Source of the DNA: Escherichia phage DK-13
DNA: 64,000 nucleotides
Reading direction: 5' to 3' (one strand)
Sequence record: MT611523.1
Under the pieces are notes generated by a model, which saw only the letters and a list, made by a program, of their open reading frames with translations, had not been told where the DNA came from and did no database searches. Below, in pieces: positions 1,445 to 59,099 of this stretch; positions within the stretch are counted from its first letter, which is position 1; each line of letters opens with the position of its first letter. Made by a program: the position numbers and the translations under genes.

Positions 1445-2884
1445 TTAAAATTTCATTTGAGCAGCAAGGTCGTCCAGGTCGCTCCTGTTGACCCTGGTTT
1501 GTCGATTCATTTCAGCCTGGCGATTCATCTCACCGGTGGCTTCTTTAACTGTAGGGCCTTGTTTAGGAGCCGAATCATCATCAACCTCATACCAGCGCTG
1601 ATTACCTTTCTTAACACCCATCTTGAATTTATTATAGTAGTTCTTATCACCATAACGAGACTTAAGCTGTTTGATTAACTGCAGCCCCATTTGAGCGAAT
1701 TCTTCGGTCTCAACAACACCCAACATAAAGTCAGCTGTATGAGCAATACCAAAGGATTCTGCGATGTCAGCCATATCAATCTCAGCTGCAACGTTCGCGC
1801 CCCTGGTTGTCTGCGCTGCAGTCCACAGGACCACATTTTTCTCGACTGCCAGACCACGAAGTTCTTCTGCAACCATCTTAATCAGACCGTAACTATTTTC
1901 GGTAAACGTTTTCAGTCTTGAGCTTGCACAGATTGCCAGGTAGTCAACAATAATCACATCTGGTACAAACCCTTGCTTCAGCTTGTACTCGTTCAGTAAT
2001 GCACGGAAGGTGTCCGCATGAGCACCGCCAGTTGGATATTGTTTTATCTTCAGAGTCCCAAGAGTCCCGGAAGCACGCCATTTTTCCATCTTAGCTTTAT
2101 ATTCCGCCCATGACACATGACCTTCATCAATATCATCCAGAGATACATCCAGCAAGTTGGCATCAATACGTTTGGCACATACTTCTTCAGCCATTTCCAT
2201 GCTTATATAAAGCACATTATGACCAGTCTGAAGATAGTCAGCGGCTAACGAACAAAGTCCAAGGGATTTGCCGACGTTCGTCCCGGCCAGTAAAACGTTC
2301 TCTGTACCGTACTCAACCCCACCCTTTGTGATTTTATTCAGGATGTTAATACGGAACGGAACCTTCTTCGATTTGTTCAGATAAGTCTGGAATCGAGCTT
2401 CGTAATCGTTTAACCAGTCATGGCCCAGAGCGGAGTCAAAACAGATAGACAATGCATCGCGCATGATGTCGGGGATAGCACCAATATCCGGGATTCGTTT
2501 ATCACGTTTATCTTTAGGAAGTTCGGCATTACTCTGGATTTCGATAATCCTGGATGTGGCATTGAACATCGCAGACTTCTGTACATACTTCTCGGTTTCT
2601 TTAACCAACCAGTCCTGGTCTTCTGGAGTATCGGCCAGGACTCCTAAGAGTTTCTTTGTGCCTTCATATTCGACTTCAGAAAGGTCAGAACTGTCGAGCG
2701 CGATATCAAGTGCAGTCTTAGTTGGTACCGCTTGATATTCTTTTACGTGTTCGTTAATCGTATTAAAAAGGGTCTTTGCAGGACCCTTTTCAAAATATGT
2801 GTTATTCAGATATGGCCAGACTTTAACAAAATATTCCTTGTTAAAGAGTAGCTGGGATAAAATAGTTTCTACCACTTCCACCAC
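1445..2884 (-). CDS. 41: gp41 replicative DNA helicase (DnaB-like primase-helicase)
   Basis: 479 aa; DnaB-family helicase-like sequence; size and synteny with 40 and uvsX as in T4. Confidence 0.93.
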   Translation of the reverse strand: MVEVVETILSQLLFNKEYFVKVWPYLNNTYFEKGPAKTLFNTINEHVKEYQAVPTKTALDIALDSSDLSEVEYEGTKKLLGVLADTPEDQDWLVKETEKYVQKSAMFNATSRIIEIQSNAELPKDKRDKRIPDIGAIPDIMRDALSICFDSALGHDWLNDYEARFQTYLNKSKKVPFRINILNKITKGGVEYGTENVLLAGTNVGKSLGLCSLAADYLQTGHNVLYISMEMAEEVCAKRIDANLLDVSLDDIDEGHVSWAEYKAKMEKWRASGTLGTLKIKQYPTGGAHADTFRALLNEYKLKQGFVPDVIIVDYLAICASSRLKTFTENSYGLIKMVAEELRGLAVEKNVVLWTAAQTTRGANVAAEIDMADIAESFGIAHTADFMLGVVETEEFAQMGLQLIKQLKSRYGDKNYYNKFKMGVKKGNQRWYEVDDDSAPKQGPTVKEATGEMNRQAEMNRQTRVNRSDLDDLAAQMKF

Positions 2885-30868: not shown

Positions 30869-31615
30869 ATGATTTTATCCGGAAGAACTGTTGATGAACT
30901 CAATGAAAAAGTCCAGGCTGCCTTGGCTGATAATTGGTATTTGTTTGGTTCTACTATGGTGTTGCCGAATACCCCTACAGATAGCAAAGAGCGTTTTTTC
31001 CAAACTATGTCCAGCTCGGAAACTCAGATACCGGGTCCGCCTGGTCCCAAAGGAGAACCGGGTGTACCCGGACCAAAAGGAGACCCAGGTGGGGATGGAA
31101 AATCTTCTTATCAGATATGGCTTGACTTGGGAAATACAGGAACTGTTGATGATTTTTTAACTGATACAGCAGGAAAGAGGGAAAAATCCGAGGTGTTTTG
31201 GAGTGGTATAAACGTTCTATTAACTAATGGTACGACTTCAAACATAATTAGTGTTTTAAAGGGGATTCCACCGACTGCAGGGACTCTATCTCCGTTTTTT
31301 AGAACCACTGATGATAAGTTGTGGCCATATAACCAAGACAGAAGCCTAATGTTTAAACTCAACCTTATTGGTAATTTTGCAGGAGCCTCGCAAGCTCGAA
31401 GTATAACATTAAATTTCGTTGGAACCAACGGAAACACTTATATACAGAATCGTCCGGAAAATGCTACAGATATTTTGTCTTTTACAACGTTCTTTAGCAT
31501 TGATAAAGATGGGGCAATGGCAACCAATGGTACAGCTATAACTGTTATGCCAAATGGCGGCAACTTTACAATAACCTCCGCATTGTTAGTAGCCGAACAA
31601 ACAGTGACTTCATAA
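30869..31615 (+). CDS. Collagen-like repeat fibre protein (Gly-X-Y repeats plus globular C-terminal domain)
   Basis: 248 aa; GPPGPKGEPGVPGPKGDPGGDG followed by SSYQIWLDLGNTGTVDDFL (post-collagen fibre motif); strong RBS AAGGAGAAAGTTT-ATG; only plus-strand gene in a 59 kb minus-strand block. Confidence 0.7.
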   Translation: MILSGRTVDELNEKVQAALADNWYLFGSTMVLPNTPTDSKERFFQTMSSSETQIPGPPGPKGEPGVPGPKGDPGGDGKSSYQIWLDLGNTGTVDDFLTDTAGKREKSEVFWSGINVLLTNGTTSNIISVLKGIPPTAGTLSPFFRTTDDKLWPYNQDRSLMFKLNLIGNFAGASQARSITLNFVGTNGNTYIQNRPENATDILSFTTFFSIDKDGAMATNGTAITVMPNGGNFTITSALLVAEQTVTS

Positions 31616-31640
31616 ACAAAAAAGGGCCATCCGGCCCTTA
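31615..31640 (-). terminator. Hairpin terminator at convergent gene ends
   Basis: AGGGCC-ATCC-GGCCCT stem-loop; U-run follows on the minus strand; lies directly 3' of the plus-strand collagen-like gene stop as well. Confidence 0.55.
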
Positions 31641-33303: not shown

Positions 33304-33864
33304 TTAAGAGTTCATAGTTGGGATAACAGAGTTCAGATAAGAGACTAAAACTTTTAGCTCGTCCTTAGTAAATACCACTTCATTAAAACCATCGTGTACT
33401 TGGGTAATACATAGTTGGTCACGACCGCCATGTTGAACAACAGCCAGTTCAGTATTATAATTCAATTCTTCTTCGTCGCCATCAAAGGTTTCACTGGAGC
33501 GAATCAGCGCATCTTGACCTGGTACTTTCCATTCAACTTCTGGCTTGCATTCTTCCTGGAAGAGTTTGAAAATACAATCAAAGAATTTATCAGAATCGCT
33601 AATGCTTAAGCATTCTGTATCGGTTTCAATATTAAACCCATCTTCATTTTTATAAACTTTGACCCATAAATCATAATTGATATCAAACGATGCACTATGA
33701 CGTCCACCAAGATAATCCTGTTTATCTAAAACCTTTAAATCATAAAGCGGTTTAATATCTTGGATAGTCAGTACGATTTTATCGTCTTCTTGACAAAGTT
33801 CAATTGCATTATTAACTACTTCAGCGGTCAGTTCGCCAAACAATTCAGTTGTTTCAATAATCAT
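33304..33864 (-). CDS. Hypothetical acidic protein
   Basis: 186 aa ORF. Confidence 0.5.
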   Translation of the reverse strand: MIIETTELFGELTAEVVNNAIELCQEDDKIVLTIQDIKPLYDLKVLDKQDYLGGRHSASFDINYDLWVKVYKNEDGFNIETDTECLSISDSDKFFDCIFKLFQEECKPEVEWKVPGQDALIRSSETFDGDEEELNYNTELAVVQHGGRDQLCITQVHDGFNEVVFTKDELKVLVSYLNSVIPTMNS

Positions 33865-33874
33865 TTTCTGTTCC

Positions 33875-34165
33875 TCAACGGTTATGTTTTAAAATACTAT
33901 AAAGTGCTTCTACTTGGCTTGCATCCAGGTAAATAACATCATCATCTTGCTCAATGGAAATCCCACCGGTATTTCCTTTAACAAAATTACATTCGCATAC
34001 TTCAACTGGGCGGTATACGTCACCAACTGGATGCTCAGGCTCCAGAACAATCACACCATTTTCAGAATTACCACTTGGGTCATATAACATTACAGTTTCC
34101 TCGCTAACCATGAAAAGAATAAACCAATTAAAACAGGCCCTACAGCCATTGTTAACCAAGCCCAA
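33875..34165 (-). CDS. Hypothetical protein
   Basis: 96 aa ORF. Confidence 0.4.
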   Translation of the reverse strand: MGLVNNGCRACFNWFILFMVSEETVMLYDPSGNSENGVIVLEPEHPVGDVYRPVEVCECNFVKGNTGGISIEQDDDVIYLDASQVEALYSILKHNR

Positions 34166-34181
34166 GGTTCAAGATAGTAAA

Positions 34182-34439
34182 TCATCTCATGCTCCTGTGC
34201 CAGCAATTTCGTGGCTCACGTTTAAAAATTTTGTCGTGCATTGATTGACAACCAACACAATATATCACACCTTTAATCGCTTGTCTCCGCGCTTCAGGAA
34301 TTTTTTCGTCGCAGTCAAAACAGAATTCAGCAGACTCCCTTTCAACTGCAACTTGTGCTCTCGCATGGGTGATAGCGGCTTGGACAACCGCTTCCATCTC
34401 TAACTGTTCAGCACCATCTTTTGCAAATCCAACAGCCAT
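34182..34439 (-). CDS. DksA/TraR-family C4 zinc-finger protein
   Basis: 85 aa; CFDCDEKIPEARRQAIKGVIYCVGCQ matches the TraR/DksA C-terminal zinc finger. Confidence 0.5.
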   Translation of the reverse strand: MAVGFAKDGAEQLEMEAVVQAAITHARAQVAVERESAEFCFDCDEKIPEARRQAIKGVIYCVGCQSMHDKIFKREPRNCWHRSMR

Positions 34440-34621
34440 TATTCTTTCAACTCATTCAGATAAGCAATTAATTCTTCTTTAGAACTATTCAAATCACGCT
34501 TGCACTGCTCTATTCCAGAATATGAATAACCTTCACAATATTCAACAGCCAGGTCATTAGCAGCATTTTCAATATGCCATGCGAGTTTAATAATTTTTTC
34601 AATTTGTTCAGTAGTTAACAT
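34439..34621 (-). CDS. Hypothetical protein
   Basis: 60 aa ORF; start overlaps upstream stop. Confidence 0.4.
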   Translation of the reverse strand: MLTTEQIEKIIKLAWHIENAANDLAVEYCEGYSYSGIEQCKRDLNSSKEELIAYLNELKE

Positions 34622-34862: not shown

Positions 34863-35065
34863 TATTCCACCACATATGATAATGAGAAAATTGCTGATGA
34901 AAGATGGGTAGCATCTTCTTCACACAGTTCAAATGGAGCTTTCTGTAAGAGTTCAACCACTTCTTCATCAGTGGCACTGTCCATAAAGATTGCATAATTA
35001 TTAAGATAGATAACAACCTCATCACCAGTATTAACTGCATCAATCTTGATATTTTTAATTCTCAT
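34862..35065 (-). CDS. Hypothetical protein
   Basis: 67 aa ORF preceded by a family-A promoter cassette. Confidence 0.45.
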   Translation of the reverse strand: MRIKNIKIDAVNTGDEVVIYLNNYAIFMDSATDEEVVELLQKAPFELCEEDATHLSSAIFSLSYVVE

Positions 35066-35130
35066 TGTGTTCTCCTCAGTAGTTGATGGGATAATAGTAC
35101 ACCCTTTTTATGGTGATGTAAACCCCCTAA
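35066..35130 (-). promoter_or_regulatory. Early promoter cassette (family A)
   Basis: Minus strand GTTTAC-N18-TACTAT then conserved leader TATCCCATCAACTACTGAGGAG then ATG. Confidence 0.5.
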
Positions 35131-35132
35131 AT

Positions 35133-35160
35133 GAAAAAAGGTCCACCCGAAGGCAGACCT
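35133..35160 (-). terminator. Rho-independent terminator
   Basis: GGTC...GACC hairpin followed on the minus strand by TTTTTT, just 3' of the gene ending at 35167. Confidence 0.5.
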
Positions 35161-35166
35161 TTTGAA

Positions 35167-35550
35167 TTACTCTAGTGTTAACAGATACTTAGTCTGAAAG
35201 AAAACTCCAACGATATCGTCCAGAGTCGATTGAATAGCCTTGGGTACAACTTTATAGACTCTTTCCGAGCTTTTAATCATTTCATCTAAAAACAAAATTG
35301 TATCTTTCGGCAAGTCCGAGGCGGACGGTAATGCAGCTTTGTATTGTTTCCCGCTGTAACCTAACCATTGCTCACTGAACTGGTCGAGTGGACCTTGGAT
35401 TTCTGTGAAGTAGAAATCATAAGCTTTATGGCGGGCGTAACTTTTGGTTTCAAGATGGGCGGACTTAAAATAAGCCAAAGAGACTAACAACCACCCAATA
35501 TATGAATCCACCTCAGACCCACGACCCGTTACGAAATCATCAAATTTCAT
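35167..35550 (-). CDS. Hypothetical protein
   Basis: 127 aa ORF. Confidence 0.5.
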   Translation of the reverse strand: MKFDDFVTGRGSEVDSYIGWLLVSLAYFKSAHLETKSYARHKAYDFYFTEIQGPLDQFSEQWLGYSGKQYKAALPSASDLPKDTILFLDEMIKSSERVYKVVPKAIQSTLDDIVGVFFQTKYLLTLE

Positions 35551-58647: not shown

Positions 58648-59099
58648 TATAAACCCTTATATCCCATTTTTCTAAGCGCATCTTCAGTAATCAATCTAAA
58701 CTGGATGCCCATTTTATCGGCTACGGCCTGCGCTGCTTTCCACTTATCCTTGTTAACGGCCCAAGTGTACATTTCGTTCATAAACCTCTTCTTACTTGCG
58801 GCGGTCGTATTGACTGGTTTTGCCGGCGGCCTTGTTTCCTTTTTGGGTTTGACCTCAAAGAAAAACTGTTGTCCATTTGAGAATTTCACCCACATATCCA
58901 TGTAATATCTGCGTTTTTTACCATCCGCATTACTGAAATATGGAATAATTACGGTCTCAGAGCCCCATTGTATCACATCTGGATGATTATCTAACCAATT
59001 AAATACAAATTTTTCCCAATTTGACCTGTATGTGATTTTCTTCCAGTCTCCTTTGTACTTGGCAACGTTTTTTGGCTGCCACTTCCCGGAGTATGCCAT
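58647..59099 (-). CDS. 4: gp4 head completion protein
   Basis: 150 aa (same as T4 gp4); divergent from gene 53 with late promoter upstream. Confidence 0.7.
   Translation of the reverse strand: MAYSGKWQPKNVAKYKGDWKKITYRSNWEKFVFNWLDNHPDVIQWGSETVIIPYFSNADGKKRRYYMDMWVKFSNGQQFFFEVKPKKETRPPAKPVNTTAASKKRFMNEMYTWAVNKDKWKAAQAVADKMGIQFRLITEDALRKMGYKGL

What the first reader, a model, noticed from the sequence alone, without database searches (positions are those of the whole stretch)
34182..34439. DksA/TraR-type zinc-finger protein
The 85 aa protein ends with the C4 zinc finger of the DksA/TraR family (CFDCDEKIPEARRQAIKGVIYCVGCQ). These proteins bind the RNA polymerase secondary channel, so a phage copy could redirect host transcription or stringent-response signalling early in infection.
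Basis: inference. Interest (0 to 1): 0.4.

Follow-up and report, generated by a model that had tools for sequence, protein, structure and literature searches.

The report
Phage YbiI/TraR-type zinc-finger protein gene
This is a real, well-conserved small gene of a T4-type E. coli/Shigella phage that encodes a DksA/TraR-family zinc-finger protein; the same protein is already in public phage records under that name, and it probably binds the host RNA polymerase, but that has never been tested for this subtype.

Summary
Window 34182..34439, on the minus strand, is an 85-aa ORF. It passes the Pfam DksA/TraR zinc-finger model (36.5 bits against a cutoff of 24.9) and has the family's CxxC-x17-CxxC spacing. 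The window is a Gaprivervirus, a T4-type phage like SP18 and VR7. The protein is 100% identical to SP18 gp103 and about 98% identical to proteins already annotated as 'TraR family C-4 type zinc finger protein' or dksA, so the finding is already known at annotation level.

I can add four points. First, it belongs to the YbiI subfamily (closest solved structure E. coli YbiI, 2KGO), not TraR proper. Second, the TraR/DksA tip motif DxxDxA is absent; the invariant N-terminus MAVGFAKDGAEQ stands in its place. The rim-helix and Si3 contact motif IPEARR is intact. Third, the finger is followed by a C-terminal helix and an invariant tail, FKRxPRNCWHRSMR, which is a variant of the bacterial YbiI tail NRRGSKDSQLR. 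Both ends are held constant through many synonymous changes. Fourth, the gene lies in a tightly packed operon behind a conserved early-type promoter.

Binding in the RNA polymerase secondary channel is the best-supported mechanism but remains an inference, at about 0.55. Interest is low to moderate.

The parts
34182..34439 (-). Complete CDS (85 aa plus TGA) of the YbiI-subfamily DksA/TraR C4 zinc-finger protein
   Evidence: ORF list and sequence; Pfam, PHROG and NCBIfam hits; 100% identical to SP18 gp103 and 97.6% to the annotated TraR/DksA proteins of UPEC07 and EAWsc9
34404..34439 (-). Codons 1-12, the invariant N-terminal motif MAVGFAKDGAEQ. This would be the secondary-channel tip if the protein binds RNAP. 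It has the YbiI-type signature, not DxxDxA.
   Evidence: No non-synonymous and 4-8 synonymous codon differences against 121Q, F48 and Entb_45; shared with bacterial YbiI-type proteins; not aligned to the TraR-type profile
34245..34322 (-). Codons 40-65, the CxxC-x17-CxxC zinc knuckles. They contain I47-P-E-A-R51-R52 (34284..34301), equivalent to TraR I44-P-E-A-R48-R49.
   Evidence: Alignments; the roles of TraR P45, E46, R48 and R49 are from PMC9239242 and PMC6970531
34185..34229 (-). Codons 71-85, the invariant C-terminal tail IFKRxPRNCWHRSMR. It is a clade-specific variant of the YbiI tail ..NRRGSKDSQLR and is absent from TraR.
   Evidence: 0-1 non-synonymous against 4-9 synonymous codon differences. 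It is still invariant in 121Q, where no downstream ORF overlaps it. Intermediates P0067 and P0104 exist.
35094..35122 (-). Probable early (sigma70, T4-early-like) promoter of the operon: GTTTACA, 17 nt, TACTAT
   Evidence: Promoter scan and sequence. The -35, -10 and Shine-Dalgarno blocks are conserved in T4 (rI.-1/mobD.5 intergenic region), UPEC07 and Klebsiella phage F48, while the spacers differ.
35136..35163 (-). Hairpin terminator that ends the upstream rI / rI.-1 unit, immediately before the promoter
   Evidence: 12-bp stem followed by a T run; conserved in T4 and UPEC07
34439..34621 (-). Upstream 60-aa ORF (DUF7438, mobD.3 homologue). Its stop overlaps the zinc-finger start codon (TAATG).
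34090..34185 (-). Downstream 31-aa hydrophobic ORF (phrog_12165). Its ATG overlaps the zinc-finger stop codon (ATGA), which suggests translational coupling.
31622..31639 (-). Next terminator-like hairpin downstream on the minus strand, the probable end of the transcription unit
   Evidence: no other minus-strand terminator-like site lies between 35094 and 31639

Best explanation
The gene encodes a small zinc-binding protein of the DksA/TraR superfamily, in the YbiI subfamily. It is made early in infection by a T4-type (Gaprivervirus) phage, as part of a densely packed operon of small accessory genes between rI and nrdC.11. Most likely it works like TraR. The zinc globular domain would dock on the beta-prime rim helices at the mouth of the RNA polymerase secondary channel through the conserved IPEARR motif. 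The acidic N-terminal helix (residues 8-29) would reach down the channel, with the invariant tip MAVGFAKDGAEQ near the active site. The C-terminal helix and basic tail would lie against the beta lobe/Si1 side. [quoted passage not shown] What is shown: gene reality, family, fold, conserved residues, purifying selection and operon layout. What is inferred: RNAP binding, the effect on promoters and the timing of expression.
For: Family: Pfam PF01258 above its gathering score; phrog_54; the best NCBIfam model is the YbiI-type PRK11019. Closest solved chains are YbiI 2KGO (1e-9) and TraR in RNAP complexes 5W1S and 6N57 (5e-5). The AF2 model (pLDDT 72.6) has helix 8-29, zinc knuckles and helix 62-71, and it superposes on RNAP-bound TraR with TMt 0.68-0.70 and rmsd 2.5-2.9 A. 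The hhalign match to a TraR-type profile is 99.7%, covering residues 12-75 against TraR 9-72. IPEARR is identical to TraR 44-49, whose P45, E46, R48 and R49 are needed for RNAP binding or Si3 contact. All five phage TraR homologues tested so far bound RNAP and complemented a dksA null (PMC9239242). YbiI was reported to rescue dksA auxotrophy at high expression (PMC2613031). Selection: dN/dS is about 0.07 and both termini are invariant through synonymous change. Expression: a conserved early-type promoter, with no MotA box, late promoter or terminator between it and the gene. KP27 has an annotated sigma70-consensus promoter directly upstream of its copy.
Against: The DxxDxA tip motif is not present. 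The sequence is F5-A-K-D8-G-A10, and in relatives the single acidic residue slides between positions 8 and 9. The profile alignment does not extend into the first 11 residues. PMC9239242 notes that C4 zinc-finger homologues lacking this motif (RSP0166, SMc00049) do not act like DksA. The protein scores below the curated cutoffs of the TraR equivalog (31 against 108 bits), the TraR subfamily TIGR02419 (52.9 against 59.7) and the YbiI equivalog (77 against 96). It has a 15-residue invariant tail with no counterpart in TraR and no known function. No YbiI-type protein has published biochemistry. T4-type phages already remodel RNAP heavily (established knowledge), so the need for such a factor is not obvious, and T4 has no copy in the syntenic region. 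The AF2 confidence is only moderate, and low at both termini.
Confidence: 0.55

Rival explanations
1. YbiI-type proteins, including this phage clade, form a functionally separate branch. They keep the TraR/DksA scaffold, but their invariant G-F/W...D tip and basic C-terminal tail give a different activity. They might bind RNAP and then block catalysis or elongation rather than tune initiation. Alternatively, the tail might recruit or bind a different host or phage partner.
For: The N-terminal and C-terminal signatures separate cleanly from TraR-type proteins across 150 representatives. Both termini are the most constrained parts of the protein. The tail persists as the canonical YNRRGSKDSQLR in other T4-like phages, KP27 and AbTZA1. 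The TraR homologue of phage VP882 acts in complex with a partner protein, QisA (bioRxiv 10.64898/2026.07.27.740977), so partner-dependent action has a precedent.
Against: The rim-helix contact motif and overall fold are retained, and YbiI is reported to rescue dksA auxotrophy. No conserved neighbouring gene that could be a partner was found across phage genera or in bacteria.
Confidence: 0.25
2. The protein uses its DksA-like RNAP binding mainly to manage conflicts between transcription and the very rapid phage DNA replication, rather than to shut down host rRNA synthesis.
For: DksA has such a role in E. coli (established knowledge; review PMC13296718 listed). In KP27 and phiR1-RT the homologue sits beside the primase (gp61) and dCTPase (gp56) replication genes.
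Against: In this window and in AbTZA1 the gene sits by rI and mobD, not by replication genes. There is no direct evidence.
Confidence: 0.1
3. It is a generic zinc-ribbon protein, binding nucleic acid or purely structural, unrelated to RNA polymerase. Alternatively it is a decaying passenger gene.
For: Sub-threshold Pfam hits to other zinc-binding domains (ArfGap, DZR). The gene is truncated in Mosigvirus ST0 and JS09 and frameshifted in phiR1-RT, so it is dispensable in some lineages.
Against: Those Pfam hits are far below threshold. The specific TraR/YbiI similarity spans the helix, the finger and the C-helix. Strong purifying selection argues against decay in this lineage.
Confidence: 0.07

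Closest known systems
E. coli YbiI (b0803; NMR structure 2KGO; NCBIfam PRK11019/NF008243)
   Same: It is the best hit in PDB and NCBIfam. It shares the N-terminal signature (MASGWANDDAV against MAVGFAKDGAE), the Cys spacing, the IP[EQ]ARR motif and a length of 85-88 aa. Both have a basic C-terminal tail ending in R.
   Different: Identity is only 35-39%. The tail is RNCWHRSMR instead of NRRGSKDSQLR. The score is below the equivalog cutoff (77 against 96 bits). YbiI is a chromosomal gene dependent on sigmaS and next to fiu-ybiX, whereas this is an early gene of a virulent phage. The function of YbiI itself is unknown.
F-plasmid TraR (73 aa; PDB 5W1S, 6N57/6N58)
   Same: Same fold (TM about 0.7), same CxxC-x17-CxxC spacing and an identical IPEARR motif. 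An acidic N-terminal helix of similar length leads into the finger. It is also encoded by a mobile element.
   Different: 25-27% identity. There is no DxxDxA tip. The phage protein has 2-3 extra N-terminal residues and about 12-15 extra C-terminal residues. It scores 31 bits against a 108-bit cutoff on the TraR equivalog.
Phage TraR homologues with tested function: lambda Orf73, P2 Orf82, VHML Orf8, VP882 Orf61, X. bovienii Gp34 (PMC9239242)
   Same: They are small phage-encoded C4 zinc-finger proteins of the same superfamily, expressed from early operons among small ORFs. Lambda Orf73 even ends in ..RGSK, which resembles the YbiI tail.
   Different: All of them are from temperate phages and are TraR-type, with both Asp residues of DxxDxA (P2: DNVDFI; lambda: DIIDSA). 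This one is from a virulent T4-type phage and is YbiI-type.
DksA (151 aa)
   Same: Same zinc-finger Pfam family. A possible D-x-A-x-Q match exists between residues 8-12 and DksA D74-R-A76-A-Q78; this comes from my own inspection and recalled DksA sequence and was not tested.
   Different: There is no two-helix coiled coil and no ppGpp-site residues. The protein scores 13.9 bits against a 105-bit cutoff on the DksA model.

Membership tests
DksA/TraR C4 zinc-finger superfamily (Pfam PF01258) | Score above the Pfam gathering threshold | tested here: met
   36.5 bits against 24.9, E 4.9e-9
DksA/TraR C4 zinc-finger superfamily (Pfam PF01258) | CxxC-x17-CxxC zinc-binding motif | tested here: met
   C40, C43, C61 and C64 have the same spacing as TraR and YbiI and are invariant in 58 full-length relatives
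DksA/TraR C4 zinc-finger superfamily (Pfam PF01258) | Fold: a long helix leading into a zinc globular domain, followed by a C-terminal helix | tested here: met
   AF2 model with H8-29, knuckles and H62-71. Foldseek gives TraR 6n57_M TMt 0.68 and 5w1s_M TMt 0.70. Model confidence is moderate (pLDDT 72.6).
TraR-type regulators (F TraR, lambda Orf73; NCBIfam NF010268 / TIGR02419) | N-terminal DxxDxA motif that reaches the RNAP active-site region | tested here: not met
   The sequence is F5-A-K-D8-G-A10. The first Asp is absent in any register. hhalign does not align residues 1-11 to the TraR-type profile.
TraR-type regulators (F TraR, lambda Orf73; NCBIfam NF010268 / TIGR02419) | Residues equivalent to TraR R48 (rim helices) and R49 (beta-prime Si3), within P45-E46-A-R-R | tested here: met
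   P48-E49-A50-R51-R52. R51 and R52 are invariant across the family.
TraR-type regulators (F TraR, lambda Orf73; NCBIfam NF010268 / TIGR02419) | C-terminal helix that contacts beta Si1 | tested here: inconclusive
   A helix at 62-71 is predicted and aligned to TraR 59-72. Its sequence differs, and a 15-residue tail follows. The contact itself cannot be tested here.
TraR-type regulators (F TraR, lambda Orf73; NCBIfam NF010268 / TIGR02419) | Score above the curated NCBIfam cutoffs | tested here: not met
   NF010268 31.1 against 108 bits; TIGR02419 52.9 against 59.7 bits
TraR-type regulators (F TraR, lambda Orf73; NCBIfam NF010268 / TIGR02419) | Direct binding to RNAP and ppGpp-independent regulation of initiation | not testable with these tools
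   This needs biochemistry, or at least a complex structure prediction.
YbiI subfamily (NCBIfam NF008243 / PRK11019) | N-terminal signature M-A-x-G-[FW]-[AT]-x-D-G-A-[VE]-Q | tested here: met
   MAVGFAKDGAEQ, compared with 100 or more representatives
YbiI subfamily (NCBIfam NF008243 / PRK11019) | C-terminal tail ..[YI]NRRGSKDSQLR | tested here: not met
   The tail is PRNCWHRSMR. Only R77 and the terminal S-[QM]-[LM]-R pattern are shared. The intermediate P0067 has ..HNRKVWHRSMR.
YbiI subfamily (NCBIfam NF008243 / PRK11019) | Score above the equivalog cutoff | tested here: not met
   77 against 96 bits. It is nevertheless the best-scoring model, and YbiI is the best PDB hit.
DksA proper (NCBIfam NF033459) | Two-helix coiled coil, ppGpp-binding residues, about 150 aa | tested here: not met
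   85 aa with a single N-terminal helix; 13.9 against 105 bits

The most novel reading that the evidence does not exclude
YbiI-type proteins may be a distinct and so far uncharacterised class of secondary-channel (or other) factor. They are abundant in Proteobacteria and have been taken up repeatedly by virulent T4-type and jumbo phages. Their invariant aromatic and acidic N-terminal tip and conserved basic C-terminal tail would act differently from TraR and DksA. The phage-specific tail RNCWHRSMR might adapt the factor to phage-modified RNA polymerase or to a phage partner.
Probability: 0.2. Interest if true: 0.55.

Novelty: already known. Interest (0 to 1): 0.25.

Why it matters
If the protein binds RNA polymerase, it would show that virulent T4-type phages add a ppGpp-independent TraR-like switch to their known tools for taking over host transcription. 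So far only homologues from temperate phages have been tested. It would also give the first function for the large YbiI branch of the family. As it stands, the finding is a correct but routine annotation. The same protein is already deposited and named, and dksA/traR zinc fingers were noted in T4-like phages as early as 2006 (PMC1524935).

Tried and rejected
1. Literature searches for YbiI returned mostly ytterbium(II) chemistry. The biology hits say only 'unknown function', sigmaS-dependent, and rescue of dksA auxotrophy as data not shown.

2. Searches for functional work on T4-like or Straboviridae DksA/TraR proteins found only annotation-level mentions.

3. I looked for a conserved partner gene. 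The neighbours differ between Gaprivervirus, Marfavirus F48, Kanagawavirus Entb_45, jumbo phage 121Q, Slopekvirus KP27 and Acinetobacter phage AbTZA1. Two bacterial YbiI loci also have unrelated neighbours, so the fiu-ybiX link is specific to E. coli.

4. I asked whether the tail is conserved only because the downstream ORF overlaps it. I rejected this: 121Q has no overlapping ORF, and the tail shows synonymous-only change.

5. I asked whether the 54-aa 'phrog_25948' proteins show that the tail works on its own. I rejected this as evidence. In Mosigvirus ST0, DNA homology of about 95% starts abruptly at codon 58 and runs into the downstream genes. This is a recent recombination remnant.

6. 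The T4 syntenic region (nrdC.4 to vs.1) has no homologue even at E up to 10, and the window has no paralogue.

7. No MotA-box or late-promoter motif lies between the early-type promoter and the gene.

8. Sequence alone could not fix the register of the tip relative to TraR. Offsets of 2 and 3 are both defensible.

Full report
OBSERVATION. Window 34182..34439 holds an ATG-to-TGA ORF of 85 aa on the minus strand. Its sequence is MAVGFAKDGAEQLEMEAVVQAAITHARAQVAVERESAEFCFDCDEKIPEARRQAIKGVIYCVGCQSMHDKIFKREPRNCWHRSMR. The protein passes the Pfam DksA/TraR zinc-finger model (PF01258, 36.5 bits against a gathering score of 24.9) and hits phrog_54 'DksA-like zinc-finger protein' at 1e-20. One correction is needed: the protein does not end with the finger, because 20 more residues follow.

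WHERE IT IS. The window is a Gaprivervirus, a T4-type phage of E. coli and Shigella in the SP18/VR7 group (Straboviridae, Tevenvirinae). It is 93-95% identical in DNA to UPEC07, SP18, EAWsc9 and others. The protein is 100% identical to SP18 gp103 and 97.6% identical to proteins annotated 'TraR family C-4 type zinc finger protein' (UPEC07) and 'dksA: DksA C4-type domain-containing protein' (EAWsc9). The gene lies in the variable early region tk - rI - rI.-1 - mobD.x - nrdC.11. T4 has no homologue in the syntenic 12 kb, even at E up to 10.

OPERON AND EXPRESSION. Just downstream of the rI.-1 homologue there is a 12-bp hairpin terminator (35163..35136, minus strand). It is followed by GTTTACA-17 nt-TACTAT (35122..35094), a GAGGAG Shine-Dalgarno sequence and the mobD.5 homologue. 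The hairpin, -35, -10 and Shine-Dalgarno blocks are conserved in T4, UPEC07 and Klebsiella phage F48, while the spacers between them diverge. This is the footprint expected of a real early promoter.

Four tightly packed ORFs follow on the minus strand. The zinc-finger start overlaps the stop of the upstream DUF7438 gene (TAATG). Its stop overlaps the ATG of a 31-aa hydrophobic ORF (ATGA). No MotA box, late promoter or terminator-like site intervenes before 31639. Early expression is therefore likely, but it is an inference.

IS IT A REAL, SELECTED GENE? Yes. dN/dS is 0.075 against UPEC07. Against the 121Q, F48 and Entb_45 copies (66-77% amino-acid identity), synonymous sites are saturated. Selection is uneven along the protein.
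- Residues 1-12 show 4-8 synonymous and 0 non-synonymous codon differences.
- Residues 71-85 show 4-9 synonymous and 0-1 non-synonymous differences.
- The middle of the helix, and even the inter-cysteine loop, change freely.

In 121Q no downstream ORF overlaps the tail, so the constraint acts on this protein.

WHICH FAMILY, PRECISELY. The best curated model is the YbiI type (NCBIfam PRK11019, 77 bits), ahead of the TraR subfamily (52.9) and the TraR equivalog (31.1). All three are below their cutoffs. The best solved relative is E. coli YbiI (2KGO, 1e-9), followed by TraR bound to RNAP (5W1S and 6N57, about 5e-5).

An exhaustive search of 1.84 billion cluster representatives gave 427 hits at E up to 1e-3. 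Among the best 150, two signatures separate cleanly.
- YbiI-type proteins begin M-A-x-G-[FW]-A-x-D-G-A-[VE]-Q and usually end ..YNRRGSKDSQLR. They are 86-91 aa long and are mostly bacterial chromosomal genes.
- TraR-type proteins begin M-x-D-x-x-D-x-A, are 68-76 aa long and have no tail.

The window protein has the YbiI-type N-terminus and a derived tail..FKRxPRNCWHRSMR. That whole clade collapses to a single 50%-identity cluster (P0041). Intermediates exist, such as P0067 with ..HNRKVWHRSMR. Other T4-like phages (Klebsiella KP27, Acinetobacter AbTZA1) carry the canonical YbiI tail.

Across public phage records, tblastn finds 710 genomes with a relative. About 166 of them are at 60% identity or more. 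They span several Tevenvirinae genera, Marfavirus and the jumbo Asteriusvirus 121Q. The gene sits in different loci: beside rI and mobD here and in AbTZA1, and beside primase and dCTPase in KP27 and phiR1-RT. Its neighbours are not conserved. It therefore moves as a single-gene cassette.

STRUCTURE. AlphaFold2 with a 58-sequence alignment gives a moderate model (pLDDT 72.6). The first 7 residues have low confidence. A helix spans 8-29, followed by the zinc knuckles, a short helix at 49-54 and a helix at 62-71. The tail has low confidence, with a turn of helix at 80-83. Foldseek places the model on RNAP-bound TraR (6n57_M, TMt 0.68, rmsd 2.9 A over 69 columns; 5w1s_M, TMt 0.70, rmsd 2.5 A) and on YbiI.

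HOW IT PROBABLY WORKS. Cryo-EM and mutagenesis divide TraR into three parts. The N-helix (residues 2-27) runs from the active site out through the secondary channel. The zinc globular domain sits on the beta-prime rim helices and Si3. The C-helix contacts the beta lobe/Si1. The critical residues are D3, D6 and A8 (the DxxDxA motif), P45, E46, R48 and R49 (PMC6970531, PMC9239242).

The phage protein keeps I-P-E-A-R-R exactly (residues 47-52). It has an acidic N-helix of matching length: D8 to C40 is 32 residues, against 31 for D6 to C37 in TraR. It also has a C-helix that hhalign aligns to TraR 59-72 (99.7%). All five phage TraR homologues tested bound RNAP and complemented a dksA null. YbiI is said to do the latter at high expression, as data not shown. 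On this basis I think docking in the secondary channel and ppGpp-independent reprogramming of initiation is the most likely mechanism (about 0.55).

The main reservation is the tip. DxxDxA is absent (F5-A-K-D8-G-A10). The single acidic residue slides between positions 8 and 9 in relatives. The profile alignment stops at residue 12. The authors of PMC9239242 link loss of this motif to loss of DksA-like function in other zinc-finger homologues. The invariant Gly-aromatic tip and the invariant basic tail are the most constrained parts of the protein, and neither has a counterpart in TraR. What they do is unknown. A distinct YbiI-type activity is the main rival explanation (about 0.25).

NOVELTY AND VERDICT. 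The gene, its family name and the general idea that phage TraR homologues retarget host RNAP are all already public. This includes Pfam-level notes on T4-like phages from 2006. The finding is therefore correct but ordinary. The modest added value is threefold. The protein is placed in the YbiI subfamily. The canonical tip motif is shown to be missing. Two strongly selected terminal motifs are identified that would be the obvious targets for mutagenesis.

Noticed in passing
window 30869..31615 (+): A 248-aa ORF on the opposite strand to all surrounding early genes. It has a collagen-like G-x-y stretch (residues 56-77) and an Sf6-type tail-needle-knob domain (PF16532, 2.6e-32; phrog_1030, 2.8e-67). 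This is an unusual module for a T4-type phage.
   Followed up: partly
L007 (Escherichia phage ST0, Mosigvirus) 2459..2626; also JS09 (H59): Only the 3' third of the zinc-finger gene survives, from codon V58. It is fused in frame to an unrelated 5' part whose start resembles the DUF7189 protein. DNA homology to the window (about 95%) begins abruptly inside the gene and continues into the downstream genes. These remnants make up phrog_25948.
   Followed up: yes
L010 (Yersinia phage phiR1-RT) 1501..1753: The homologue matches in two tblastn pieces in different frames, and the record annotates only a 43-aa ORF (g033). This is either a frameshifted pseudogene or a sequencing error.
   Followed up: no
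window 34090..34185 (-): A 31-aa hydrophobic ORF (MIYYLEPWAWLTMAVGPVLIGLFFSWLARKL, phrog_12165) whose ATG overlaps the zinc-finger stop codon (ATGA). It is conserved in ST0 and annotated in UPEC07. It is a probable small membrane peptide of unknown role.
   Followed up: partly
window 35060..35175 (-), compared with T4 58715..58830: The terminator hairpin, GGTTTAC -35, TAcTAT -10 and GAGGAGAA Shine-Dalgarno blocks are conserved between this phage, T4 (rI.-1/mobD.5 intergenic region) and Klebsiella phage F48, despite divergent spacers.
   Followed up: partly
L001 (UPEC07), L014 (T4 RefSeq): Public records contain name-propagation errors. Small mobD.x ORFs are labelled 'molybdopterin-guanine dinucleotide biosynthesis protein MobD'. 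In UPEC07 the mobD.1 homologue is labelled 'thymidine kinase', and the homologues of rI.-1 and the small ORF between rI and tk are labelled 'endoribonuclease'.
   Followed up: no
window 33304..33864 (-): The mobD.1 homologue matches the Pfam families T4_y05I_N and T4_y05I_C ('putative transcription factor'). A second possible transcription-related protein is therefore encoded in the same early operon, three genes downstream of the zinc finger.
   Followed up: no
L004 (phage lambda) 893..1114 (-): Lambda orf73, the experimentally studied TraR homologue, is not annotated as a CDS in RefSeq NC_001416. Its C-terminus (..KQRGSK) resembles the start of the YbiI tail (..NRRGSK..).
   Followed up: no
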